DNA of 64,000 nt from Eubacteriales bacterium (GCA_050309735.1 JBNRMS010000068.1:24405-88404); one strand, 5' to 3'. Shown: positions 7,947 through 62,685, counted from the stretch's first letter. The notes: generated from the letters alone by a model not told the origin. Numbers and translations are program-made.

Positions 7947-8903
7947 ATGACCGAGATTATGACCGACACCGATAAGAAAACGACCACGACCGAGACATTC
8001 GCGGCCACCGCTCCCCCCTCTCCGGTCAAAAAAAGGAGGAGAAGGCTGGGAGACAGAAAAGACGGCCGCCGCCTCCGCACACTCTCCCCTATGAACGCGG
8101 TGATGCCCTATATCATGGCAAGGCGCTCAGACGCCTGCAACACCTTCGCAGATAGCTTCAATATTGCCAAAACCGATGCCTTCTGCCGGCGCAAAATCAA
8201 GGAGGGTAAGACAAATTTCGGCTTCCTCCATGTGATTTTAGCGGCCTATGTAAGGACTATCTCGCAGCGCCCGGCGATAAACCGCTTTGTGAGCGGCCAG
8301 AAAGTCTTCGCCCGCAACGAGATTTCGGTTATCATGACCATCAAGCGCACAATGGCGCTTGACACTCCCGACACCTGTATTAAAGTGGTTTTTGAACCGA
8401 CAGACACGGTCGACGATGTTTATGAAAAATTCAACCGTGCGGTTGTCGAGAACTCAAAGTTAGGCGACACCAGCTCATTTGATAGGCTTGCAAAAGCGTT
8501 TACCTTCATACCTGGACTTTTTCTGCGCTGGACTGTCAAGCTGCTTTTCTTTCTTGATTATTTCGGCTGGCTGCCCAGAAAACTTACCAATCTCAGCCCC
8601 TTCCACGGCTCTATGATTATCACGAGCATGGGTTCGCTCGGCATCCGCCCGATATATCACCATATCTACGACTTCGGCAATCTTCCGGTCTTTTTGGCAT
8701 ATGGCGCCAAAAGAACGGTTAATGAGCTTGACTCGGAGGGCAATGTCTTCAAACGCAAATATATTGACCTGAAGGCAGTAACCGACGAGAGAATCTGCGA
8801 CGGCTATTACTATGCCTCGGCTTTTAAAATGTTCAAAAAGCTGGTTGAAAACCCAAACGCACTCGAAACACCGCCCGAGACGGTCTATGAGGATATTGAC
8901 TAA
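7947..8903 (+). CDS. Stand-alone protein resembling the catalytic domain of a 2-oxoacid dehydrogenase E2 acyltransferase
   Basis: C-terminal pattern FHGSMIITSMGSLG...AVTDERICDGYYYASAFKMFKKLVENP resembles the E2 catalytic core (DHRxxDG, here DERICDG). There is no lipoyl domain. I chose the ATG at 7947 because the track start at 7869 is TTG. Confidence 0.6.
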   Translation: MTEIMTDTDKKTTTTETFAATAPPSPVKKRRRRLGDRKDGRRLRTLSPMNAVMPYIMARRSDACNTFADSFNIAKTDAFCRRKIKEGKTNFGFLHVILAAYVRTISQRPAINRFVSGQKVFARNEISVIMTIKRTMALDTPDTCIKVVFEPTDTVDDVYEKFNRAVVENSKLGDTSSFDRLAKAFTFIPGLFLRWTVKLLFFLDYFGWLPRKLTNLSPFHGSMIITSMGSLGIRPIYHHIYDFGNLPVFLAYGAKRTVNELDSEGNVFKRKYIDLKAVTDERICDGYYYASAFKMFKKLVENPNALETPPETVYEDID

Positions 8904-8914
8904 TAACAAAAAGT

Positions 8915-8950
8915 GCGCCGGGGAAACTTCATATGAAGTTTCCCCGGCGC
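8915..8950. terminator. Bidirectional intrinsic terminator between convergent genes
   Basis: GCGCCGGGGAAACTTCAT/ATGAAGTTTCCCCGGCGC is a perfect palindrome. It is preceded by AACAAAAAG and followed by GTTTTTT. Confidence 0.85.
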
Positions 8951-8963
8951 GTTTTTTAATATG

Positions 8964-20596: not shown

Positions 20597-21238
20597 TTAG
20601 CATCCGAGCAAATCAGCAAGCTCATCAAGCCCGTTTATTGTGATATCGGGCTTTGAGGATTCGTCGGCAGGCACCATATCAACAAACATTCCCCGCATTA
20701 TTCGCGCCGTCCTCATGCCGGTGAGCTTTGCCGGGCGGATATCGTTGTCGAGCCTGTCGCCGACCATAAGTGCGCGGGAGGGGGGGCATTTGGTTTCCTT
20801 GAGCGCATATTCATAAAATTCCACGGCAGGCTTGTGCAGTCCTACCTCATCAGACGCGAAAACTGCATCGAAATATTCGGAGATTCGGTATTTTATCAAT
20901 CTTCCGGCTGTTCCAGGGGTTTGATTTGAGATTATTCCAACTTTATATCGCCGCCCGATTCTGGTGAGTGCGCTCTCGGCATCGGGATAGGGCTCCTCGT
21001 AATCCGGGGTATATCGAGGAACCGTTGTTCCAAAGCTTTTTGCCGCGCCTATCATCGGTGATTTTCCTTTAGCTCCGTGTTTTTTAGCCTCAATTATAAA
21101 TTCCTCGGGCGACACTTCTATTCCCCGCCCGGCAAGCTCCTCAAGGGCTGCGGACATTCGTATTGCGTGCGAGCCGTCCTCGTTTATCAGTGTGTACCCG
21201 AGGTCAAAAAACACCCAGTCGATATCTTTCAAAATCAT
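20597..21238 (-). CDS. HAD-IA family hydrolase
   Basis: WVFFDLGYTL carries the DxG/DxT-type motif I, and VGDRLDNDI is motif IV. 213 aa with RBS GGAGG. Confidence 0.85.
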   Translation of the reverse strand: MILKDIDWVFFDLGYTLINEDGSHAIRMSAALEELAGRGIEVSPEEFIIEAKKHGAKGKSPMIGAAKSFGTTVPRYTPDYEEPYPDAESALTRIGRRYKVGIISNQTPGTAGRLIKYRISEYFDAVFASDEVGLHKPAVEFYEYALKETKCPPSRALMVGDRLDNDIRPAKLTGMRTARIMRGMFVDMVPADESSKPDITINGLDELADLLGC

Positions 21239-21256: not shown

Positions 21257-21445
21257 ATTGTTATACCATAGTCGCAAGTAAATTTCTCCCGGGCGTTACT
21301 TTGCCGTTGCGACATCGCAGGCTTCTTTGAAACCTGCCAGCGTGTACATTATACCATAGTCGCAAGTGAATTTCTCCCGGGCGCTACCTCGCCTTTGCGA
21401 CATAGCAGCTTTTTGCAAAAGCTGCCAGCGTATATATTATACCAC
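21257..21445 (-). repeat. Two tandem ~100-bp copies (plus a partial third -10 box) of a structured element capped by a -10 box, upstream of the HAD hydrolase gene
   Basis: Gene-sense unit: GGCAG-stem-loop-CTGC GATGTCGCAA N16 GGGAGAAATT(T)ACTTGCGACTATGGTATAA(C/T). Copies start at 21257 and 21357. It is related to the 60.2-60.5 kb repeats on the other strand. Confidence 0.8.
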
Positions 21446-21552
21446 ACAGACACCCTTTATTCAAGTCTGCCATATGTATTGTTTTATACTTTTCTGCATA
21501 TAAATAGTAAGCGTTATAATAGTTATAATGACAGACAAGGAGAATTTCGGAT

Positions 21553-28920: not shown

Positions 28921-29008
28921 TAGGGGCGAACAGTGTTCGCCCGCGAAGTGCGGCAGATTTGGAATCTGTGGAAATCGCTTGTTTAGGGGCAACACTGTTC
29001 GCCCCTAC
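28921..29008. repeat. Two REP-like GC-rich palindromes
   Basis: TAGGGGCGAACAGTGTTCGCCC (28921-) and TAGGGGCAACACTGTTCGCCCCTA (28984-), 62 bp apart. Confidence 0.6.
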
Positions 29009-35025: not shown

Positions 35026-37824
35026 CTATTGCTCTGCCCGTACAAAGGCTGACAGGGCGGCCGCTATTTTCGAGGCATCTTCGATTACGGATGGGTCGGA
35101 CGAGGTGGCAAGCCCGAGCGCCGAGAAGAGAGCGAGAATTTTTTTGCGATCGCTCTCTATCTGGCGGGGATAGTCGGGCCGGTATTTTATTTTCGAGCGA
35201 AGGCCGAGCGCAGCTTTGACATATTTCCCGGTAGCGCTGTCATATCTCAGAATGCGCTCGACCCCGCCGGTTGCAACCCGATAGGCGGCGGGCTCTATGA
35301 TATTTGTCACCGCGGGCGAGGCTAACTCATAATAAACCTTCACGCCGCTGACCGGCTTTGAAAGTGTCAGATAAATTCCGTTTACGCTGCCGATATTCCC
35401 CGATGCAGAGAGATATACTGTCCCGTTTTTTGCACCCTCAAGCTGCACCACATCGCCGCTCGAACCGCTGACAGTCATAACACCAACGCGACGGCAGAGT
35501 TTGCCGCTATCAAAGTCAAGCGTGTCGCAAATCCCACCAGGCAGGCGGCACATCTCATAATTCTGCGTGAATAACAGGCTCGAATCAAGCTCGTTTGTCT
35601 CGCCTCCGGTGCTGTTAAGTCCTCCGACAATAGCATTTGTCTGCCCCTTTGGGTGATAAACCCCGCCGATAATTTTTTCGATTTCGGCGGCGGGAAGCTC
35701 ATCCATACCCAGATAGGTCAGGTCGTAGACAGCCAGTCTCCGCATACTGATGACCTCCTCGGTCATCGTAAGGTTTACAGTGATTTTCGCACCGGGAGAC
35801 GGAAGGTTTACCACCGTTCCCGAGAAGCCGTATTCTGACAGCTCTGCCGGCTCACTTGAGCCGGGCAGTGTCCAACCGGCTCCCGACACATATGTGAGCA
35901 CATAGCTGCCGCTCGCAGCATTATAGCCGAGCGCTCCGGCAAATTTCACAGGATCAAGCACAGGATTGATAATTCCTATAATCCCGTATGTGGTATAGAT
36001 TGCAGAGGGGGTTCTTCCATATGGAAAGGTAAAATCAATATTTATCTCCGAGTTTGCCCTCAGAGCCTCGTTCGACGTGCTGAACACAACTTCAATCCCA
36101 TAGTTTGTCAAGTTGACAAGTTCCCCGACTCCATCTACCCTCCAACCGTAGTTATAGACAAAACGGTATTTGCCGTTCCACAGAGGAGAGAAGGCAGCGA
36201 TTTTATTAGAGAAAAGCACGGGATTCACCGTCACACTCGAAATATATCCCGAGTGGGAGGCCGCCGCTACAATCTGGCGCTTGTCCCACAGACCGACCGC
36301 CCCTTCTCCGTTAGTAGACGAGGTTATAATGCCCGAGACGCGCTGCCAGTCGTCTGTTGCACATGATTCGATATAATGCACACCTCCTCCGCCCCCGTCT
36401 GCGAAAAGGACGACGCCCGGTGCGGTCGTCGGTTTTTTTATTTCACCCTCAATATAGTATTTGTGTCCTGCGGTAAAAGAGACAGCGCGCATAATTTTTG
36501 CCGGAACGGCCTCGGCCGCCGTCGGCTGGTAGACCTCAATTGTAAAGGAATCAATCTCAAAATCATCCTCATAAACTGTTATTACAACAGCTCCGACTTC
36601 AAGACCTTCTATATCCCACCCTTCCCCGTCATATCTTTCAACAATATCTACTATCCCCGGCACGCTCGCCTCGCAATATTGCAGGCCTGTGTCATAACCG
36701 TCGACCTCGACGACGCCCCCGATTTGAATCAAATAATCGGCGTCTGATTCGACAATTTCCGGCGCGGGGGGAGGATTGAGGGTTATCGAGCCTGTGCCGC
36801 TCCAAACCTCAAATTCCCCTCCCTCGAATGACCAGCCCGAGGCGTCGGCAAAATTTCCGTTGTCAAGCAGCTGAACCACACTCATCCCCTCAAGCTCGAC
36901 AAGCTCAGCCGATGCCAGCTCTATGCCCTCCTCACCCGAGGCGCTGGTCCGCTCAAAGAGGATATCCTCAACCTCAATTTCTCTCACCGGGGACAGGTTG
37001 TCGGCCGCCCCGGCGATAAGATCTGCCGCCCGACCCGAGGCCGGGGCGTAGGTTTCGGCGTGGTTGTGCGAGATTGGCGCATAGGTGCCTGTGTGGTTGT
37101 GGGAAGCAGGTGCATATGCGCCTGTATGACTGTGTGTGAGAGGCGCATATGTACCCGCATGGCTGTGAGAGACCGGCGCATAAGTGCCTGTATGGTTGTG
37201 CAAGACATCGGCCTTGCCCGCCAGCGCAGCATGCACCCCTCCCGATGCCACCGCGCGCCCGCTGCCCGCAGTCGGAGCGGCATCTATTGCCGGCTTGTTT
37301 TTTATGTAATCGAGCGCCCGGCTGTCTGCCTGCGACCAGTCAGACTGCACATTTAACTGAGCACCCGACTCAATGCCCGCAAGCTTTGCTTTTTCCTCGT
37401 TTGTATAATCGTTTGAGGACAAACCCTTTCCCTCAGCGACATTCACCTTTCCGAGAAGAGCCGTCATGATCTGAGAGGCTTGGCTCGGAGTTGGAACAAG
37501 TGCCTCGTTTTCTGTCGGAACGCTCGTGTCAAGCACCCGCACAAGCCCCTCGGCGCTTATCAGCACCCGCTCGCCGCAATAGCCGCTCACCACAAACCTG
37601 CTTGTCCCCCCGACATTCATAACCTCCGCGGGGATGTTGATAGGCTCGCCGCCATATAGAATCGAGACCGCCTCTCCCTCGGGCGGGTAAAAGCTCACGG
37701 TTACCGCAAGCCCTTCCCACTCCTCACTAAGGACAAAATCAAGTTTTTCTATTCCGTAGCTCCCCCGCGTCCCCGCGACAAACCTTGCCGGATTCAAAAC
37801 ATATCTGTCAACTTTAATTATCAT
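35026..37824 (-). CDS. Phage tail-fibre / receptor-binding-protein-like protein (orphan)
   Basis: 932 aa from the ATG at 37824, which lies 8 nt after AAAGG. Tail-fibre motifs GLSSNDYTNEEKAKLAGIESGAQ and DWSQADSRALDYIKNKP are present, along with five 11-aa HxH(T/A)GxYAPxS repeats. CBM-like (LLDNGNFADASGWSFEGGEFEV) and Ig-like segments follow. It has its own extended -10 promoter and its own terminator. Confidence 0.8.
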   Translation of the reverse strand: MIIKVDRYVLNPARFVAGTRGSYGIEKLDFVLSEEWEGLAVTVSFYPPEGEAVSILYGGEPINIPAEVMNVGGTSRFVVSGYCGERVLISAEGLVRVLDTSVPTENEALVPTPSQASQIMTALLGKVNVAEGKGLSSNDYTNEEKAKLAGIESGAQLNVQSDWSQADSRALDYIKNKPAIDAAPTAGSGRAVASGGVHAALAGKADVLHNHTGTYAPVSHSHAGTYAPLTHSHTGAYAPASHNHTGTYAPISHNHAETYAPASGRAADLIAGAADNLSPVREIEVEDILFERTSASGEEGIELASAELVELEGMSVVQLLDNGNFADASGWSFEGGEFEVWSGTGSITLNPPPAPEIVESDADYLIQIGGVVEVDGYDTGLQYCEASVPGIVDIVERYDGEGWDIEGLEVGAVVITVYEDDFEIDSFTIEVYQPTAAEAVPAKIMRAVSFTAGHKYYIEGEIKKPTTAPGVVLFADGGGGGVHYIESCATDDWQRVSGIITSSTNGEGAVGLWDKRQIVAAASHSGYISSVTVNPVLFSNKIAAFSPLWNGKYRFVYNYGWRVDGVGELVNLTNYGIEVVFSTSNEALRANSEINIDFTFPYGRTPSAIYTTYGIIGIINPVLDPVKFAGALGYNAASGSYVLTYVSGAGWTLPGSSEPAELSEYGFSGTVVNLPSPGAKITVNLTMTEEVISMRRLAVYDLTYLGMDELPAAEIEKIIGGVYHPKGQTNAIVGGLNSTGGETNELDSSLLFTQNYEMCRLPGGICDTLDFDSGKLCRRVGVMTVSGSSGDVVQLEGAKNGTVYLSASGNIGSVNGIYLTLSKPVSGVKVYYELASPAVTNIIEPAAYRVATGGVERILRYDSATGKYVKAALGLRSKIKYRPDYPRQIESDRKKILALFSALGLATSSDPSVIEDASKIAAALSAFVRAEQ
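37039..37200 (-). repeat. Five tandem 33-bp (11-aa) HxH repeats inside the tail-fibre-like gene
   Basis: HNHTGTYAPVS / HSHAGTYAPLT / HSHTGAYAPAS / HNHTGTYAPIS / HNHAETYAPAS (residues ~214-267 of the track ORF). Confidence 0.85.
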
Positions 37825-37916
37825 GTCTTTGCCTTTCAAAGGCGCTTTCTGTTATCCCGCGTAAATTATATCAAAGCACCCTCTCTTGTGACTGACATCT
37901 TTATGTCAGCACAACT

Positions 37917-54938: not shown

Positions 54939-56483
54939 TCACTCCTCCGCCCAAAGCTCTATAATCACAGTATTATATTCACCGTTGCGATAGAATGTTA
55001 CCATAACACTGTCTCCGGCAAACTTCTCGTTGATGATATTCATCACCTCACCCGTGCTTAAAACCTTCTTGCCGTCAACCTCTGTTATAATATCGCCCGG
55101 CTCAAGTTTTCCGGCTGCTCCGTATCTTTGGTTAACCTCGGACACATATACGCCGGCAATATCAGCGAGTATAACCGTGCCGTCAATAAATCTATTCTCG
55201 CCGGCAGAGACCGAGATAGCGCTTATCCCAATCACAGCGCGCCGCTGAGCGACATCCTGCGAGCCTGTCGAAGAGCCGGTTTCTATAATTTCGTTGAGAA
55301 TCGGGAGCGCACCGTTTGTCGGTATTGCGAAGCCTATACCGTCAAATCCGTCTCCAAGCTTAAGCGTGATAATGCCGATAACCTGCCCGTATTCGTTGAT
55401 AAGCGGACCGCCCGAATTTCCGGGGTTGACAGTCGCGTTTGTCTGAATCAGGGTCATTTTTTTGGACATTACGCCGGTTTGGTCATATATTTTTACATTG
55501 CGGTCGATACCCGAAATTATGCCGTTAGTTGTGGTTTCAGCGTATTCCAGCCCTGCCGGAGTTCCTATCGCCACCACAAGCTCGCCGACTATAAGCTCGC
55601 TCGAGTCGCCAAACTCGGCCGGCGTCAGCCGGTCGGCATCAATCTTGATAACCGCAAGATCGGAGAGCGCATCGTATCCAACGACCTCAGCATTGTATTC
55701 CCTGCCGTCACCGACAGTCACCACAATTGATAGGCTTTTCTCAACCACATGGTAGTTGGTTGCTATATAGCCGTCGGCCGACATGATTATGCCGGTTCCA
55801 ACGCCCGAGCCAACACCCAAAAGGTTCTCGTAGCTCACCGTTATACCGACCACAGACGGCCTTACCTTTGCGGCAATTTCGGGAATTGTTAACACGCCGC
55901 TGTCATTATCAAGCTCGCGAACAAAAATTGTCCGCGTGGGGCGCGGGATCAGCGCACCGCTCTCGTATAAAAGAATACCGAGCATCGTTGTAAAGCAGAG
56001 CGCGAAGGCAATTGTCATAATAATTGCGTAGGTAAGTACGCCGGAATTCCGGCGTTTTTGCTCGACGCGTCGTAACTCGTCGCCATATGTCCAGCGATAT
56101 TCGGTGGGAGGCGGCGGGTCGGATAGTGCCTCCCCCCGCGGGGGAAGTCCGATATCTGTGCGAGGGTTGCCCGTGCCGGGCAGATTTATCTCGGGGGTGC
56201 GGGGTGTTTCCCTGTCAGGCGGGTTTATCTCGGGAGTGCGGGGTATTTCCTTGTCAGGCGGGTTTATCTCGGGAGTGCGGGGTGTTTCCCTGTCAGGCGG
56301 GTTTACCTCGGGGGACGGAGAGGGGCGGTCACCCGGCTCGGCGGGCGGATTCTTCGGCTCTGCCGCCCTCGGTCCGGCGGGCGTTGCCATCTCATTTTTT
56401 TGCGTATTGCCGCTCTCTCTCATATGATTCACATCTATCTCACCGCTCGTATTGTCGGGACTAATTTTTCTGTAATCTTCCAT
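54939..56483 (-). CDS. HtrA/DegP-type serine protease with a PDZ domain and a proline-rich repeat N-terminus
   Basis: GNSGGPLIN contains the active-site Ser; TNYHVV contains the His. A C-terminal PDZ is present (GVYVSEVNQRYGAAGKLEPGDIITEVDGKKV). The N-terminal cytoplasmic region has 13-aa repeats and precedes a TM helix. Confidence 0.9.
   Translation of the reverse strand: MEDYRKISPDNTSGEIDVNHMRESGNTQKNEMATPAGPRAAEPKNPPAEPGDRPSPSPEVNPPDRETPRTPEINPPDKEIPRTPEINPPDRETPRTPEINLPGTGNPRTDIGLPPRGEALSDPPPPTEYRWTYGDELRRVEQKRRNSGVLTYAIIMTIAFALCFTTMLGILLYESGALIPRPTRTIFVRELDNDSGVLTIPEIAAKVRPSVVGITVSYENLLGVGSGVGTGIIMSADGYIATNYHVVEKSLSIVVTVGDGREYNAEVVGYDALSDLAVIKIDADRLTPAEFGDSSELIVGELVVAIGTPAGLEYAETTTNGIISGIDRNVKIYDQTGVMSKKMTLIQTNATVNPGNSGGPLINEYGQVIGIITLKLGDGFDGIGFAIPTNGALPILNEIIETGSSTGSQDVAQRRAVIGISAISVSAGENRFIDGTVILADIAGVYVSEVNQRYGAAGKLEPGDIITEVDGKKVLSTGEVMNIINEKFAGDSVMVTFYRNGEYNTVIIELWAEE
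56149..56312 (-). repeat. 39-bp tandem repeat (about 3 full copies plus degenerate flanks) inside the htrA-like gene
   Basis: Plus-strand units start at 56188, 56227, 56266 and 56305 (atctcggg(g/a)gtgcggggt(g/a)tttcc(c/t)tgtcaggcgggttt). They encode (E)INPPD(R/K)E(T/I)PRTP. Confidence 0.9.
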
Positions 56484-58838: not shown

Positions 58839-59009
58839 TATGTAACCCCCTCTGTTTTATCCGTATATGTTTATTAACTTAAAAAAGAAAGACGCAACGC
58901 GGCTTCAGCCAAACCTGCCGATATATATATATTATAACATATGTAAAATATTTTGCAATTGCTTTTTTGCTTTTTCATTTGTTTTTTTGCGCGGTTTGTC
59001 CTCTCACTA

Positions 59010-59099: not shown

Positions 59100-60200
59100 A
59101 TGAAGCTCGGTATAGTCGGACTGCCCAACGTGGGCAAAAGTACACTTTTTAACGCACTGACAAACGCAAAGGCCGAATCGGCCAACTACCCCTTTTGCAC
59201 GATAAACCCAAATGTAGGAATAGTCCCGGTTCCAGACCGACGGCTTGAAGTTCTTGCAAACATATATAAATCCGAAAAATGCATTCCGGCAACAATTGAA
59301 TTTGTCGATATCGCAGGGCTTGTCCGGGGTGCGTCGCGCGGAGAGGGACTTGGGAATAAATTTCTCTCTCATATACGCGAGGTTGACGCTGTTGTGCAGG
59401 TCGTCCGCTGCTTTGAAGGGGGCGGAATTATACACGTCGAAGGCGGTGTTGACCCGCTGCGCGACCTTGATATTATAAACCTTGAGCTGATTTATTCGGA
59501 CATGGAGATGCTCGAGCGCCGAATTGAGCGCACAAAAAAAGCGCTCAAGGGCGACCGCAAGCTAGCAGGTGAGCTTGCGGCACTTGAGGGTCTGATGGCC
59601 AAGCTTGAGGAGGGCATCCCGGCGCGCGCGGCAGGGCTCCCAGAGGAGGAACTTGCCGCTCTTTCGGCCGACACACCGCTCCTGACACTCAAACCTGTGA
59701 TATACGTTGCCAATGTTGGTGAGGACGATATCGGTGCCGGCGAGCCGACCGAAAACCGCTTTTATATGCAGCTCAAGGAGCGCGCAGACGCCGAGGGCGC
59801 CGAGCTGATAGCTATATCTGCCCGCATCGAGGCCGAGATTGCCGAGCTTGAAGGGGGGGAGAGGGCAGCCTTTCTCACCGAACTCGGTATTGCAGAATCG
59901 GGTCTTGAGAGGCTTATAAAATCAAGCTATTCGCTGCTCGGCCTTATCAGCTACCTAACGGCGGGTCCGAAAGAAACCCGGGCGTGGACTATAAAAAAAG
60001 GCACCCGCGCGCCCGAGGCTGCCGGCAAAATCCACAGCGATTTTGAGCGCGGTTTTATCCGCGCCGAGATTGTGGCTTACGACGACCTTGCAAGGCTTGG
60101 AAGCATGAACGCTGCGAAGGAAGCCGGCCTTGTCCGAAGCGAGGGCAAGGAATATGTGATATGCGACGGAGACGTTGTTCTGTTCAGATTTAACGTTTAA
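59100..60200 (+). CDS. ychF: Redox-regulated ATPase YchF
   Basis: [33 protein letters not shown], and a C-terminal TGS region ([30 protein letters not shown]). The ATG at 59100 follows AAAGGA. Confidence 0.95.
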
Positions 60201-60204
60201 TCAA

Positions 60205-60510
60205 GACATAAGATATAATAAGAACATTGGCAGGTTTCCGAGAAACTTGCACTTTGCGACTGGCTATGGCTCAACATTCACATTAGCAAGTTTCTCCGAA
60301 AGCTGCGATGTCGCAAAAGCAAGCGAACGCATGGGAGAGATTCACTTGCACCTATGGATATAATATACTCTTTGGCAGGTTTCCGAGAAACTTGCACTTT
60401 GCGACTGGCTATGGCTCAACATTCACATTAGCAAGTTTCTCCGAAAGCTGCGATGTCGCAAAAGCAAGCGAACGCATGGGAGAGATTCACTTGCGACTAT
60501 GATATAATGA
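60205..60510 (+). repeat. Two near-identical tandem 144-bp copies (plus a partial leading -10 box) of the structured element capped by a -10 box, between ychF and trmB
   Basis: TATAAT boxes at 60215, 60359 and 60503, exactly 144 bp apart. The units from 60230 and 60374 are identical over about 122 nt and diverge only at cacttgcACCtatgG versus cacttgcGACtatg. Confidence 0.9.
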
Positions 60511-60527
60511 AATAAAGGTAACCCAGC

Positions 60528-61178
60528 ATGAGAATGAGACATAAAAAACGTGGCGCCGAGCGTATCGCCGCCCTCTCTCACCTTTTGATTGAAAAACCCG
60601 AGACCCTCATTGCCGACCCGTCAGCCCCCTTCGGCGCGACCCGGCCGCTGCACCTTGAGATAGGCTGCGGCAAGGGAGCCTTCGCCTCCCGCCTCGCGGC
60701 GGCAAATCCCGGCATAAATCTAATCGCCGTCGAGCGTATTCCCGACGTCGCTTGTATTGCCCTTGAGCGCGCCGAGGCCGAAAAAGAAGAGCGACCGGCC
60801 GATAATCTGCGCTTTATTATTGCAAACGCGCAAAGTGTCGGCGAGTGGCTGCCTGCGGCGAGCATTGAGTGCATTTATCTGAATTTCAGCGACCCATGGC
60901 CAAAGAAGGCTCATGCCAAGCGTCGCTTAACCCACGCCGACTTCTTAAAAATCTACCGCCGCCTCTTGATTGACGGCGGTCGGCTTGAGATGAAAACAGA
61001 CAACACCGCCCTTTTCGATTTCAGCCTTGAGCAGTTTGCCGCCGAGGGGCTTGATATAGCCTGGCAAACTCGAGACCTGCACTCCTCAAAGAGAGCCGCC
61101 GGCAATATCATGACCGAATATGAGAGAAACTTCACCGCGGCAGGTGTTCCTATCTGTGCGGCGACAATAATATTTTAG
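60528..61178 (+). CDS. trmB: tRNA (guanine46-N7)-methyltransferase
   Basis: LEIGCGKGAF, IYLNFSDPWPKKAHAKRRL and TEYERNF. Confidence 0.93.
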   Translation: MRMRHKKRGAERIAALSHLLIEKPETLIADPSAPFGATRPLHLEIGCGKGAFASRLAAANPGINLIAVERIPDVACIALERAEAEKEERPADNLRFIIANAQSVGEWLPAASIECIYLNFSDPWPKKAHAKRRLTHADFLKIYRRLLIDGGRLEMKTDNTALFDFSLEQFAAEGLDIAWQTRDLHSSKRAAGNIMTEYERNFTAAGVPICAATIIF

Positions 61179-61195
61179 TGATAAGGAGATATGAT

Positions 61196-61762
61196 ATGCT
61201 AAAAGAACTGGTGCTAAAAAACCGCAGTTACCGCTCGTTTGACCAGAGCCGGAAAATTACGCGTGAGGAGCTTCTTGGTTTTGTTGACCTCGCCCGGAAA
61301 ACACCTTCGACCCGCAATCGTCAGACATTGCGCTATCGGCTCGTCCACACACAAGCCGAGTGCGAAAAAGTGCTACCATTGACCGGCTGGGCGGGCAACC
61401 TTAAAATAAAGCTCCCGCCGAAGGGGCACGCGCCGACCGCATATATCATAATCTGCCACGACACGGCCGAGCCGCACGAGAAATTCCTACGCGATGTTGG
61501 AATCACAGCTCAAACCATAATGCTTGCCGCAGCAGAAGCAGGTCTTGGCGGCTGCATGATTGGCAGCTTCTCAGGTGATAAGCTCTCGGCGGCGCTCGCT
61601 ATCCCCGAGGAATACCGCCCGATGCTCGTGCTGGCGCTCGGGAAGCCCGACAAGGATGAGGTTATCGAACTTATCGAGGCTGTGGGGGGAGACGTAGCCT
61701 ATTATCGCGAGGACGGCGTCCATTATGTTCCCAAGCGGCCGCTTGACGATATTATCATTTGA
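61196..61762 (+). CDS. Nitroreductase family protein
   Basis: NRSYRSF, the TPSTRNRQ-type segment and GLGGCMIG. The ATG at 61196 lies 7 nt after AAGGAG; the track start at 61178 is GTG. Confidence 0.85.
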   Translation: MLKELVLKNRSYRSFDQSRKITREELLGFVDLARKTPSTRNRQTLRYRLVHTQAECEKVLPLTGWAGNLKIKLPPKGHAPTAYIIICHDTAEPHEKFLRDVGITAQTIMLAAAEAGLGGCMIGSFSGDKLSAALAIPEEYRPMLVLALGKPDKDEVIELIEAVGGDVAYYREDGVHYVPKRPLDDIII

Positions 61763-61764
61763 CA

Positions 61765-62685
61765 ATGGGAAAAAACGAAAAAAGCGAGCTGTCAGGTGTG
61801 CTGGTAGTCGACAAGAAAGCCGGAGTAACCTCTCATGATATAGTCAATAAAGTACGCCGCGTCTCGGGCACTCGCCGGGTCGGCCACACCGGAACACTCG
61901 ACCCGCTGGCAACCGGAGTTTTGGTTATACTTGTGGGAAGGGCGGCTAAAGCGTCTGAATATCTCTTATCCGACCGCAAAAGATATCTTGCCACCCTGAG
62001 ACTCGGCCTCACAACCGACACCGAGGATATAACCGGGGTTGTCCTAACCGAGCAAAAAAATCTCCCGCCCGCAGCAGACGTTATCGCCACCGCCGGGCGC
62101 TTCACCGGAAAGATAATGCAGACCCCGCCGATGTACAGCGCCCTGAAAGTAGGCGGCCGGAAACTTTATGATATAGCCCGCGCCGGCGGGAGCATTGAGC
62201 GAGAACCGAGGGCCGTCGAGATATTTAGCATGGTATGCACCCCCGACAACAAAAGCCGAGACTATCAGTTAGATCTTACCTGCTCAGCCGGCACATATGT
62301 CCGCACTCTTTGCGCCGATATCGGCGCCAGCCTCGGCTGCGGCGGGGTTATGGCCTCGCTCAGGAGGATTGAGGCAGGTGAATTTAATCTCGGGCAGGCT
62401 ATAACGACAGAGCAGCTCGAAAGCCTTAGCCGGGGCGAGCTTGAAGCGCTTCTTCTGCCTGTGGAGAAGCTTTTCTCAGGCCTCCCCAAGATTCTGCTGC
62501 CCGAGTTTTATGAGCGCCTTTGCCGCTCGGGATGCGAGATATATCAGTCTAAAATCAACACTTCACTTGCTCGCGGGCAGCGTGTCCGCCTATGCGGTGC
62601 CGATGGCAGATTTTTTGCCCTTGGCGAGGTTGGAGAATTCCCCGGGGGCAGTGCTCTCAAGGCGATAAAATTATTTGAAATATAA
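61765..62685 (+). CDS. truB: tRNA pseudouridine(55) synthase
   Basis: GVLVVDKKAGVTSHD, VGHTGTLDPLATGVL with the catalytic Asp, and QTPPMYSALKVGGRKLY. The start is ATG 61765 or the TTG at 61759, which overlaps the upstream stop. Confidence 0.93.
   Translation: MGKNEKSELSGVLVVDKKAGVTSHDIVNKVRRVSGTRRVGHTGTLDPLATGVLVILVGRAAKASEYLLSDRKRYLATLRLGLTTDTEDITGVVLTEQKNLPPAADVIATAGRFTGKIMQTPPMYSALKVGGRKLYDIARAGGSIEREPRAVEIFSMVCTPDNKSRDYQLDLTCSAGTYVRTLCADIGASLGCGGVMASLRRIEAGEFNLGQAITTEQLESLSRGELEALLLPVEKLFSGLPKILLPEFYERLCRSGCEIYQSKINTSLARGQRVRLCGADGRFFALGEVGEFPGGSALKAIKLFEI

What the first reader, a model, noticed from the sequence alone, without database searches (positions are those of the whole stretch)
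60205..60510. Tandem 144-bp structured element, each copy ending in an extended -10 promoter box, immediately upstream of trmB
The ychF-trmB spacer is filled by a nearly perfect tandem duplication. Three TATAAT boxes lie at 60215, 60359 and 60503, exactly 144 bp apart. The two full units are identical over about 122 nt.

Each unit read on the plus strand has three parts:
- A 21-bp stem, GCAGGTTTCCGAGAAACTTGC paired with GCAAGTTTCTCCGAAAGCTGC (2 mismatches), around a 35-nt loop.
- A second pairing, GTCGCAA ... TTGCGAC (7 bp). A third TTGCGAC copy sits in the loop of stem 1, so alternative pairings are possible.
- The terminal sequence CACTTGCGACTATGATATAAT, which is a TGnTATAAT extended -10 box.

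The last box is about 20 nt upstream of the trmB ATG. Shorter relatives occur at 21.3 kb on the other strand, again abutting a gene start. I know of no Rfam family, IS end or MITE with this layout. It could be a repeated cis-regulatory RNA (5' UTR element), a mobile promoter cassette, or an array of operators for a regulator that recognises TTGCGAC.
Basis: seen in the sequence. Interest (0 to 1): 0.75.

Follow-up and report, generated by a model that had tools for sequence, protein, structure and literature searches.

The report
Promoter-carrying 88-nt repeat inserted before trmB
The ychF-trmB spacer of this uncultured Clostridia genome holds a tandem array of a small repeat found only in this lineage; each unit ends in a promoter-like box, so it is most likely a new family of small interspersed "mobile promoter" repeats rather than a riboswitch-like RNA.

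Summary
The repeat is real: TRF score 541, 97% matches, and a 123-nt run identical between the two copies. Three details of the description need correcting.

- **Box spacing.** The TATAAT boxes start at 60214, 60359 and 60503, so they are 145 and 144 nt apart.
- **Extended -10.** Only the last box is a true TGnTATAAT.
- **Unit structure.** The "144-nt unit" is composite: a truncated unit plus one full 88-nt unit.

The basic unit is a 9-nt spacer, hairpin P1, GATG, then GTCGCAA-N29-TTGCGAC, then TATGRTATAAT. Five full copies are known: two upstream of trmB, two upstream of a HAD hydrolase gene at 21.3 kb, and one in a related MAG upstream of a response-regulator gene.

In eight related lineages the ychF-trmB spacer is only 9-65 nt, so the array here is an insertion. 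No Rfam family matches it. No copy was found in the genome, metagenome, viral, plasmid or phage collections. Covariation is not significant.

Best reading (confidence about 0.5): a lineage-restricted small interspersed repeat that brings a sigma-A promoter and a structured leader to downstream genes, and that grows and shrinks by recombination between its boxes. It is a new member of a known kind and of moderate interest.

The parts
60214..60219 (+). Box 0: TATAAT without TG. TTAACG lies 18 nt upstream, inside the ychF 3' end. This is the left edge of the inserted array.
   Evidence: Sequence. The promoter scan scores 10 of 12. The box is absent from the orthologous spacer in L004 and L005.
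60220..60275 (+). Truncated unit C1. It consists of a 9-nt spacer (60220-60228), hairpin P1' GGCAGGTTTC-CGA-GAAACTTGC (60229-60250), a remnant of the unit 3' end ACTTTGCGACTGGCTATGG (60251-60269), and a degenerate box CTCAAC (60270-60275).
   Evidence: Alignment A2. Weak CM hit at 60214-60267, 19 bits, E = 0.03.
60276..60364 (+). Full 88-nt unit C2. It consists of a spacer (60276-60284), P1'' (60285-60306), P2 5' arm GTCGCAA (60310-60316), GGGAGA (60333-60338), a degenerate P2 3' arm TTGCACC (60346-60352), and box TATAAT (60359-60364) whose TG is out of register.
   Evidence: Alignment A3. CM hit at 98.4 bits.
60365..60420 (+). Truncated unit D1, a copy of C1. It has spacer ATACTCTTT, hairpin P1', the remnant, and the degenerate box CTCAAC.
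   Evidence: Alignment A2. It lies within the 123-nt identical run.
60421..60508 (+). Full 88-nt unit D2. P2 arms are GTCGCAA (60455-60461) and TTGCGAC (60491-60497), GGGAGA is at 60478-60483, and the unit ends in TATGATATAAT. This gives a TRTGnTATAAT extended -10 at 60500-60508, 19 nt before the trmB ATG.
   Evidence: CM hit at 108.7 bits.
60528..61178 (+). trmB, the tRNA (guanine-N7)-methyltransferase gene downstream of the array.
   Evidence: Pfam Methyltransf_4, E = 3e-36. Homologues are named TrmB.
59103..60200 (+). ychF, the GTPase gene upstream of the array. In relatives it is followed by trmB after only 9-65 nt.
   Evidence: Pfam YchF-GTPase_C and MMR_HSR1. Gene maps of the relatives.
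21348..21441 (-). Full unit A, given from box to box. It begins at the native promoter of the HAD gene: TTGAAT (21464-21459), 17 nt, then TGGTATAAT.
   Evidence: CM hit at 113.7 bits.
21260..21353 (-). Full unit B, given from box to box. It ends in TATAAC, which lacks the -7 T, about 22 nt before the HAD gene start.
20597..21238 (-). HAD-family hydrolase gene downstream of the 21.3-kb array. It is unrelated to trmB.
   Evidence: Pfam Hydrolase and HAD_2. Its closest relative in 5.8 billion proteins is 44% identical.
58895..58939 (-). Native promoter of the response-regulator gene (TGTTATAAT, 58931-58939) followed by GGCAGGTTTGGCTGAAGCCGCGTTG (58895-58919). That stretch aligns with the first 26 nt of units B and E, so it is either a remnant or the progenitor of the unit. 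The closest relative (L004) has one full unit at this site.
   Evidence: The alignment matches 20 of 26 positions, and 2 of 500 shuffles reach its score.

Best explanation
The spacer holds a tandem array of a lineage-restricted small interspersed repeat whose basic unit is 88 nt. It belongs with the "putative mobile promoter" and BOX-like class of repeats.

**Anatomy.** Each full unit consists of:
- a 9-nt spacer with consensus ATAYAYRYT;
- a 9-bp hairpin, P1 (GCAGGTTTC/GAAACCTGC);
- GATG;
- a 7-bp inverted repeat, P2 (GTCGCAA-N29-TTGCGAC), enclosing a conserved GGGAGA;
- a TRTGnTATAAT box.

**How it arrived (inferred).** The array was inserted between ychF and trmB after this lineage split from its closest sequenced relative. 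Units spread to promoter-proximal sites in the orientation of the downstream gene. Arrays then expand, contract and lose internal parts by recombination between the repeated box-spacer-GGCAGG stretches. This would have produced the truncated-plus-full pair, which was later duplicated as a 145-nt higher-order unit.

**Effect (inferred, not shown).** The boxes act as sigma-A extended -10 promoters. trmB would then gain its own transcription starts independent of ychF. The predicted starts are near 60515 from the last box, and near 60226 and 60371 from the upstream boxes. Transcripts from the upstream boxes would begin 2-4 nt before hairpin P1. A 5'-terminal stem-loop followed by an SD-like GGGAGA is the arrangement known to stabilise mRNAs in Firmicutes.
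For: **The repeat is real and modular.**
- Supported.
- Five full units score 98-116 bits with model R1.

**It is an insertion.**
- The ychF-trmB spacer is 40 nt in L004 (TrmB 90% identical) and 28 nt in L005.
- It is 9-65 nt in L006, L011/L012, L015, L016 and L017.
- In L007 the gene order is different.

**It is dispersed.**
- Copies sit upstream of three unrelated genes: trmB, a HAD hydrolase gene and a response-regulator gene. All three are in the orientation of the downstream gene.
- Each full copy starts exactly 9 nt after a TATAAT (or degenerate CTCAAC) box.
- Unit A is closer to E, which lies in another genome at another locus (88%), than to its array neighbour B (83%).
- L004 has a full unit where the window has only a 26-nt remnant.

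**The boxes look like promoters.**
- TGnTATAAT occurs 13 times in the window against 1.9 expected, mostly with a good -35 upstream of genes.
- Unit ends match TRTGnTATAAT. The TRTGn motif of Voskuil and Chambliss 2002 is listed in the references of PMC2613000.
- The most conserved block of the unit (87-93% among A, B and E) runs from P2 to the box, which covers the region -38 to -7 of the next predicted start.

**It meets the operational definition of a putative mobile promoter.** The definition in PMC3488235 requires at least 40 of 50 nt identical upstream of non-homologous CDSs. A-D2 and B-D2 score 41 of 50.

**Stabiliser precedents.** The aprE 5' stem-loop, STAB-SD and a polypurine stabiliser are cited in PMC3997798.
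Against: - No transcription data exist. The -35 region (GAGAAA) is poor, the HAD-proximal box is TATAAC, and two of the three boxes before trmB lack a correctly placed TG.
- A start from the last box would leave only a leader of about 13 nt before trmB.
- The mechanism of spread is unknown. There are no terminal inverted repeats and no short target duplication. No transposase is linked to the element.
- Only five full copies in two genomes could be examined, because the rest of both genomes was not retrievable.
- P2 is perfectly conserved far upstream of the next box. A promoter function alone does not explain that.
Confidence: 0.5

Rival explanations
1. The unit is a structured RNA: either a cis-regulatory 5'-leader (riboswitch-like or protein-binding) or a small RNA gene with its own promoter, present in tandem copies. 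P1 and P2 would be functional RNA helices.
For: - P1 shows two compensatory pairs (G-C to C-G, and C-G to U-A) and one G.U wobble.
- P1' has a second G.U. Both wobbles fit only the strand that is co-directional with the downstream genes.
- The predicted starts lie 2-4 nt before P1.
- The long units fold better than shuffled sequence, z = -3.1 to -3.6.
Against: - No Rfam family matches, even at E up to 10.
- Both compensatory changes are in the same copy, and 66 of 500 shuffles do as well. P2 never covaries.
- The short units are not significantly stable, z = -1.6 and -1.9. The reverse strand folds at least as well, z = -2.8 and -4.5.
- No terminator follows any unit.
- The downstream genes are functionally unrelated.
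- The element is absent from the orthologous leaders of all relatives.
Confidence: 0.15
2. The unit is a non-autonomous single-strand DNA transposon of the IS200/IS605-derived or REP type. Hairpins P1 and P2 would be the ends recognised by a Y1 transposase. The element would insert 3' of TATAAT-like sequence. Because it ends in TATAAT itself, it would create a new target and so pile up in tandem.
For: - There are no terminal inverted repeats and no short target duplication.
- Hairpins lie next to both ends.
- Every unit starts a fixed distance after a TATAAT (or degenerate CTCAAC) box and ends with one.
- Presence and absence differ between genomes.
Against: - P1 and P2 are unrelated in sequence and size, whereas the two ends of such elements bind one transposase.
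- The two arrays have opposite orientations in a window whose GC skew is negative throughout. This gives no bias relative to replication, though with only n = 2.
- The relative's ychF-trmB spacer has no TATAAT target.
- In L004 the unit is flanked by a 22-25-nt direct repeat that includes the first nucleotides of the unit. This looks like homology-driven exchange rather than cut-and-paste.
- No transposase was seen near any copy.
Confidence: 0.1
3. The conserved inverted heptamers GTCGCAA and TTGCGAC are operator half-sites for a DNA-binding regulator, positioned just upstream of each -10 box. The array would then be a multi-operator control region.
For: - The heptamers and the stretch from GGGAGA to the box are the most conserved parts of the unit.
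- TTGCGAC lies at about -24 to -18 of each predicted promoter. A third TTGCGAC survives in the truncated units.
Against: - The half-sites are 36 nt apart centre to centre, which is unusual for a dimeric repressor.
- The motif is found nowhere else in 64 kb apart from the repeat copies.
- The downstream genes share no function.
- No candidate regulator gene is linked.
Confidence: 0.08
4. The repeat encodes a small protein. Candidates are the ATG in GATGTCGCAA, giving MSQ(R/K)..REKFTCDYG.., and the 62-64-aa ORFs at 60175-60363 and 60308-60502.
For: - An ATG and an open frame of 20-64 codons exist in every unit.
- The peptide start MSQ..A.E.FTC.Y is similar between copies.
Against: - No Shine-Dalgarno sequence precedes the ATG.
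- The 88-nt period shifts the frame from unit to unit.
- Differences between copies fall mostly on second codon positions (reading).
- The C-termini are unrelated.
- A profile of all three forward frames found nothing in 5.8 billion predicted proteins.
Confidence: 0.03

Closest known systems
Putative mobile promoters (PMPs; Matus-Garcia, Nijveen and van Passel 2012, PMC3488235)
   Same: - Highly similar 50-100-nt sequences lie immediately upstream of non-homologous genes in one genome.
- They are not accounted for by Rfam families or IS elements.
- They are proposed to rewire transcription.
   Different: - PMPs are an operational class with no defined anatomy.
- This family has a fixed modular unit and occurs as head-to-tail arrays.
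- Each unit carries the -10 box at its 3' end, so n units give n+1 boxes.
Pneumococcal BOX elements and other composite small interspersed repeats such as BIME and NIME (Croucher et al. 2011, PMC3049150)
   Same: - They are under 200 bp, intergenic, highly base-paired and restricted to one species group.
- A module is iterated in tandem in variable number (boxB).
- They are co-transcribed with neighbouring genes and can stimulate downstream expression.
- Insertion sites differ between close genomes.
   Different: - BOX has distinct terminal modules (boxA, boxC) that form terminal inverted repeats resembling an IS. This family has no terminal inverted repeats.
- The whole unit, promoter box included, is what is iterated here.
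- No sequence similarity was detected to any searched collection.
Correia elements of Neisseria (MITEs that create promoters)
   Same: - A small repeat whose insertion supplies a functional -10/-35 to the adjacent gene.
- When transcribed, it forms a hairpin (background in PMC3049150).
   Different: - Correia elements have 26-bp terminal inverted repeats and a TA target duplication, and they occur singly.
- None of these features is seen here.
5' mRNA stabilisers of Firmicutes: the aprE leader stem-loop, cryIIIA STAB-SD and the ermC polypurine stabiliser
   Same: A stem-loop within a few nucleotides of the predicted 5' end, followed by an SD-like polypurine (GGGAGA) that is not used for translation.
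   Different: - Those stabilisers are single, gene-specific leaders, not repeated cassettes.
- The resemblance here is positional only and untested.

Membership tests
Putative mobile promoters (PMC3488235) | At least 50 nt aligned at 80% identity or more between upstream regions of different CDSs in one genome | tested here: met
   The best 50-column windows score 41 of 50 for A versus D2 and 41 of 50 for B versus D2. The definition is quoted.
Putative mobile promoters (PMC3488235) | Downstream and upstream CDSs of the two sites are not homologous | tested here: met
   The downstream genes are TrmB and a HAD hydrolase. The upstream genes are YchF and an M23 peptidase (Pfam).
Putative mobile promoters (PMC3488235) | The sequence actually drives transcription | not testable with these tools
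   Only consensus evidence is available: TRTGnTATAAT at unit ends, and TGnTATAAT 13 times against 1.9 expected in the window.
MITE (miniature inverted-repeat transposable element) | Terminal inverted repeats | tested here: not met
   The first 25 nt were compared with the reverse complement of the last 25 nt for all five units. Nothing matches beyond the AT-rich TATA.
MITE (miniature inverted-repeat transposable element) | Short target-site duplication flanking the insertion | tested here: not met
   The filled ychF-trmB site was compared with the empty sites in L004 and L005, and no duplicated flank was found. In L004 the flanking 22-25-nt repeat is part of the unit and of the native leader.
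MITE (miniature inverted-repeat transposable element) | A cognate IS or transposase with matching ends in the same genome | not testable with these tools
   Only 64 kb of the genome is available, and the source contig could not be retrieved.
BOX-type composite repeat | Distinct terminal modules flanking a tandemly iterated internal module | tested here: not met
   The arrays consist of the same unit, full or truncated, with no distinct end modules.
IS200/IS605-derived or REP-type single-strand elements | Similar sub-terminal hairpins at both ends, and orientation biased relative to replication | tested here: not met
   P1 and P2 differ in sequence and size. The two arrays are in opposite orientation within a uniformly negative GC-skew region, though n = 2.
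Any Rfam RNA family (riboswitch, leader, sRNA, ribozyme) | Covariance-model score at or near the family threshold | tested here: not met
   The gathering-threshold scan of the whole window found only a tRNA. E-value scans of both arrays gave best hits of 18 bits against a 58-bit threshold, all from unrelated eukaryotic or viral families.
Cis-regulatory leader RNA (general) | Conservation at orthologous positions and significant covariation | tested here: not met
   The element is absent from the orthologous leaders of eight relatives. Two compensatory pairs were found, and 66 of 500 shuffles do as well.
Type III toxin-antitoxin RNA arrays (ToxI-like) | Tandem RNA repeats directly upstream of an endoribonuclease toxin gene, ending in a terminator | tested here: not met
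   The downstream genes are trmB and a HAD hydrolase gene, and there is no terminator.

The most novel reading that the evidence does not exclude
The unit could be a self-propagating promoter cassette of a mechanistically new kind. It would be a non-autonomous element without terminal inverted repeats or target duplication that homes to the DNA just downstream of sigma-A -10 boxes. It might do this by homology with its own box-spacer-GGCAGG end, or through an unknown enzyme that recognises P1 and P2. In that way it would multiply promoters and 5' hairpins across the genome. A variant of this reading is that each unit is transcribed from its own box into a new structured RNA whose P2/GGGAGA module is the selected part.
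Probability: 0.12. Interest if true: 0.7.

Novelty: new member of a known kind. Interest (0 to 1): 0.35.

Why it matters
**If the boxes are active.** The insertion would have turned trmB-nitroreductase-truB from genes co-transcribed with ychF into a unit with up to three promoters of its own. That would be a natural example of transcription being rewired by a portable promoter.

**What makes the family unusual.** The promoter is part of the repeated unit, and the unit is phased exactly 9 nt from the preceding -10 box. It could therefore serve as a compact natural "promoter plus 5' stabiliser" part for Clostridia. It could also serve as a model for how promoter-bearing repeats spread without recognisable transposon ends.

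**If the boxes are inactive.** The array is simply one more lineage-specific intergenic repeat.

Tried and rejected
**Rfam.** The window was scanned at gathering thresholds, and both arrays were scanned at E up to 10. Nothing relevant was found.

**Collection scans.**
- Genome contigs: 3 chance hits in unrelated archaea and Methylococcaceae.
- Viral contigs: 0 hits.
- Metagenome contigs: 0 hits with the 3'-half pattern.
- Metagenome contigs: 2 hits with the 5'-half pattern. Both lie inside coding sequence and are negative with the covariance model.
- blastn against plasmids and phages: no match.

**Covariance model R1.** It was searched over the window and about 205 kb from relatives. No further copies were found.

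**Spurious-ORF trick.** A profile of the three forward reading frames of the unit was searched against 5.8 billion predicted proteins, to reach Logan and ENA assemblies. There were no hits.

**Source genome.** The source contig could not be retrieved. The 100%-identical TrmB and HAD proteins exist in the protein database but are not on record in the contig index.

**HAD locus.** Orthologues of the HAD gene were sought to test presence or absence at that locus. None is closer than 44% identity.

**Readings considered and rejected.**
- Small-protein coding.
- ToxI-like antitoxin array.
- Alternative-sigma promoters (sigma-H, -E, -K, -F, -G, -B and ECF consensus sequences compared by eye, with no fit).
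- Spo0A boxes: TGTCGCAA differs from TGTCGAA by an inserted C.
- Integron attC sites.
- A possible extra degenerate unit upstream of the 21.4-kb array (21445-21486): not significant, with 14-45 of 300 shuffles doing as well.

Full report

Yes, with corrections. Tandem Repeats Finder reports 60227-60508 with period 145, 2.0 copies, 97% matches and score 541. The repeat finder gives copies at 60212-60356 and 60357-60501. The two long copies share an uninterrupted identical run of 123 nt.

Reading the sequence places the TATAAT hexamers at 60214-60219, 60359-60364 and 60503-60508. Their spacings are 145 and 144 nt, not 144 twice. Only the last box is TGnTATAAT (TGATATAAT). The first is AAGATATAAT. 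The second carries a 1-nt insertion (TGGATATAAT) that moves the TG out of register.

The 21-nt arms, the 35-nt loop, the GTCGCAA/TTGCGAC pairing and the third TTGCGAC at 60254-60260 are all present. Two 88-nt relatives lie at 21260-21441 on the minus strand (TRF score 273; sequence). The shared 20-mer ACTTGCGACTATGRTATAAY occurs three times against 0.00 expected by chance.

**2. Anatomy: the basic unit is 88 nt and the 145-nt unit is composite**

When the short units are aligned with the long ones, they match the second half of a long unit. Splitting the long unit then gives a clean alignment (A2; A3).

A full unit reads:
- a 9-nt spacer (ATATACGCT, GTACACGCT, ATATATGTT or ATTCACATT);
- hairpin P1 (GGCAGGTTTC-loop-GAAACCTGC);
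- GATG;
- P2 5' arm GTCGCAA;
- 16 nt;
- GGGAGA;
- RATTYAC;
- P2 3' arm TTGCGAC;
- TATGR;
- TATAAT.

Each long unit has two parts:
- A truncated unit made of box, spacer, a perfect hairpin P1' (with one G.U), a remnant ACTTTGCGACTGGCTATGG, and a degenerate box CTCAAC. These lie at 60214-60275 and 60359-60420.
- A full unit at 60270-60364 and 60415-60508.

Any two neighbouring similar palindromes will pair this way, so it is not a separate structural feature. The trmB array is therefore box0-[truncated-full]-[truncated-full], a higher-order repeat typical of arrays that evolve by unequal recombination.

**3. Surroundings and relatives**

| Gene | Coordinates | Pfam assignment |
|---|---|---|
| YchF | 59103-60200 | YchF-GTPase_C, MMR_HSR1 |
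| TrmB | 60528-61178 | Methyltransf_4 |
| Nitroreductase | 61178-61762 | Nitroreductase |
| TruB | 61759-62685 | TruB_N, TruB_C_2 |
| HAD hydrolase (follows the 21.3-kb array) | 20597-21238, minus strand | Hydrolase, HAD_2 |

An M23/M50 peptidase pair is transcribed divergently from the 21.3-kb array.

TrmB homologues were used to fetch syntenic loci. The closest relative is the MAG GCA_964367925.1 (locus L004), with TrmB 90% identical. All other relatives are 74% identical or less.

The ychF-trmB spacer is 40 nt in L004 and 28 nt in L005. It is 9-65 nt in L006, L011/L012, L015, L016 and L017. The 327-nt spacer of the window is therefore an insertion of about 290 nt that replaced about 8 nt.

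L004 carries one full unit at another site. It lies between the native promoter of the response-regulator gene and that gene's leader (L004 1022-1115, minus strand). That promoter, TTGCAA-17-TGNTATAAT, is conserved in all relatives.

At the same site the window has no full unit. It has only GGCAGGTTTGGCTGAAGCCGCGTTG, which aligns with the first 26 nt of units B and E. The alignment matches 20 of 26 positions, and 2 of 500 shuffles reach its score. In L004 the unit is flanked by a 22-25-nt direct repeat, TATAATATATATGTTGG(CAG)GTTTC. That repeat consists of the box, the spacer and the first nucleotides of both the unit and the native leader.

Unit A is more similar to E, which lies in another genome at another locus (88%), than to its own array neighbour B (83%). 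C2 and D2 are only 72-77% identical to A, B and E. The copies are therefore not simply products of recent local duplication, and distinct subfamilies exist.

**4. Searches elsewhere**

Covariance model R1 was built from the five full units, with 16 base pairs. It recovers four of its five source units at 98-116 bits (unit B, which overlaps A by 6 nt, is not listed separately) and truncated unit C1 at 19 bits. It finds nothing else in the 64-kb window or in about 205 kb from relatives.

The other searches gave:
- Exact-pattern scans returned only chance matches in the 185,579-species genome collection.
- The viral collection gave nothing.
- JGI metagenomes gave nothing with the first pattern. 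The second pattern gave two hits inside coding sequence that are negative with the covariance model.
- blastn against plasmids and phages found nothing.
- A profile of the unit's three forward reading frames found no spuriously called ORF among 5.8 billion proteins.
- Rfam gave nothing.

The source contig itself could not be retrieved, so the genome-wide copy number is unknown. Within what can be searched, the family is confined to this genus-level lineage.

**5. RNA or DNA?**

Evidence for a selected RNA structure is weak:
- P1 has two compensatory pairs, but both are in copy A. P2 never varies except where it is broken in C2.
- Overall, 66 of 500 shuffles reach the observed covariation.
- The short units fold no better than shuffled sequence (z = -1.9 and -1.6).
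- The reverse strands fold as well or better (z = -2.8 and -4.5).

Two G.U pairs fit only the gene-sense strand, which is a hint and not a test. No terminator follows any unit. The downstream genes are unrelated in function. The element is not conserved at orthologous positions.

A coding reading is rejected for four reasons: there is no SD before the ATG, the 88-nt period shifts the frame, the differences fall mostly on second codon positions, and there are no protein hits.

**6. Most likely function and mechanism**

*Shown*
- The element is a dispersed, tandemly iterated insertion that differs between close genomes.
- Every full copy begins exactly 9 nt after a TATAAT (or degenerate CTCAAC) box and ends with a box.
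- All three loci are co-oriented with the downstream gene.
- TGnTATAAT is the dominant promoter type in this genome. It occurs 13 times against 1.9 expected, usually 17 nt after a TTGACA-like hexamer and upstream of genes.
- Unit ends fit the Firmicute TRTGnTATAAT motif (reference in PMC2613000).
- The best-conserved block of the unit covers -38 to -7 of the next predicted start.

*Inferred*
- The boxes fire. trmB would then acquire starts near 60515, 60371 and 60226 and become independent of ychF.
- Transcripts from the upstream boxes would begin 2-4 nt before P1. A 5'-terminal stem-loop followed by an SD-like polypurine (GGGAGA) is the arrangement of known Bacillus mRNA stabilisers: aprE, STAB-SD and the ermC polypurine (references in PMC3997798).
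- Spread and array dynamics are best explained by recombination through the repeated box-spacer-GGCAGG stretch. This is what the flanking repeat in L004, the remnant in the window, and the truncated and duplicated units all suggest.
- A dedicated transposition mechanism cannot be excluded.

*Caveats*
- The -35 region is poor.
- The HAD-proximal box is TATAAC.
- Two of the three trmB boxes lack a correctly placed TG.
- A start at the last box would leave a leader of only about 13 nt.

**7. Comparison with known systems**

- **Putative mobile promoters.** The family meets the operational definition in PMC3488235 (definition; test).
- **BOX and other composite small interspersed repeats.** It behaves like them (PMC3049150): it is lineage-restricted, highly base-paired, tandemly variable and co-transcribed. 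It lacks their distinct end modules.
- **MITEs and Correia elements.** It lacks their terminal inverted repeats and target duplication.
- **IS200/IS605- or REP-type single-strand elements.** It does not fit them. The end hairpins are unlike each other. The two arrays are in opposite orientation within a uniformly negative GC-skew region.
- **Rfam families and ToxI-like arrays.** It is neither.

**8. Verdict**

This is a real, lineage-specific, promoter-bearing tandem and interspersed repeat. It is a new member of a known kind. Interest is moderate at 0.35, because promoter-carrying repeats and mobile promoters are established concepts.

Three things remain unexplained: the exact phasing to the -10 box, the perfect conservation of P2, and the absence of transposon hallmarks. 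They leave room (about 12%) for a mechanistically new self-propagating promoter cassette or a new structured RNA.

Noticed in passing
window 58895-58939 (-) and L004 1022-1115 (-): The response-regulator gene has a full unit behind its native promoter in the closest relative. In the window the same site holds only a 26-nt stretch homologous to the start of the unit (2 of 500 shuffles do as well). Relatives L005 and L006 have unrelated hairpins at the same position in this leader, so a 5'-terminal stem-loop may be an old feature of this mRNA and a possible progenitor of hairpin P1.
   Followed up: partly
window 20597-21238 (-): Apart from itself, the HAD hydrolase behind the 21.3-kb array has no relative above 44% identity in 5.8 billion proteins. 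Neighbouring housekeeping genes have 70-90% orthologues. It may be an acquired gene now driven by the repeat-bearing promoter region.
   Followed up: partly
window 21445-21486 (-): Just upstream of the 21.3-kb array lies TAAAAC-N9-GGCAGAC..GTCTG-TGTGGTATAAT. It looks like a degenerate truncated unit that contains the native -35 (TTGAAT). The similarity is not significant (14-45 of 300 shuffles).
   Followed up: partly
window 56185-56312: A 39-nt tandem repeat of 3.3 copies at 93% identity lies inside the 5' part of the HtrA-like protease ORF at 54939-56483 (-). It would encode a 13-residue repeat.
   Followed up: no
window 37061-37207: A 33-nt tandem repeat of 4.5 copies at 70% identity lies inside the 937-aa ORF at 35026-37839 (-).
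   Followed up: no
window 8903-8962: An adjacent 30-nt inverted repeat, 87% complementary with T-runs on both sides, lies between convergent ORFs (I9). It is probably a bidirectional terminator.
   Followed up: no
window 28921-29007: A 22-nt inverted repeat, 91% complementary, with arms 43 nt apart (TAGGGGCGAACAGTGTTCGCCC / GGGGCAACACTGTTCGCCCCTA, I23). It is unexplained.
   Followed up: no
window 1-64000: GC skew is negative in nearly every 4-kb bin, so the window appears to lie on one replichore. TGnTATAAT is strongly enriched, at 13 occurrences against 1.9 expected.
   Followed up: partly
L013 1091-1121 and L014 1161-1191: The pattern ATGTCGCAA..GC..CGC..GGGAGA also occurs by chance inside a conserved coding region (peptide MSQ[KR]PEIAGEMIK) of two termite- or gut-type metagenome contigs. 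These hits are unrelated to the repeat and negative with the covariance model.
   Followed up: yes
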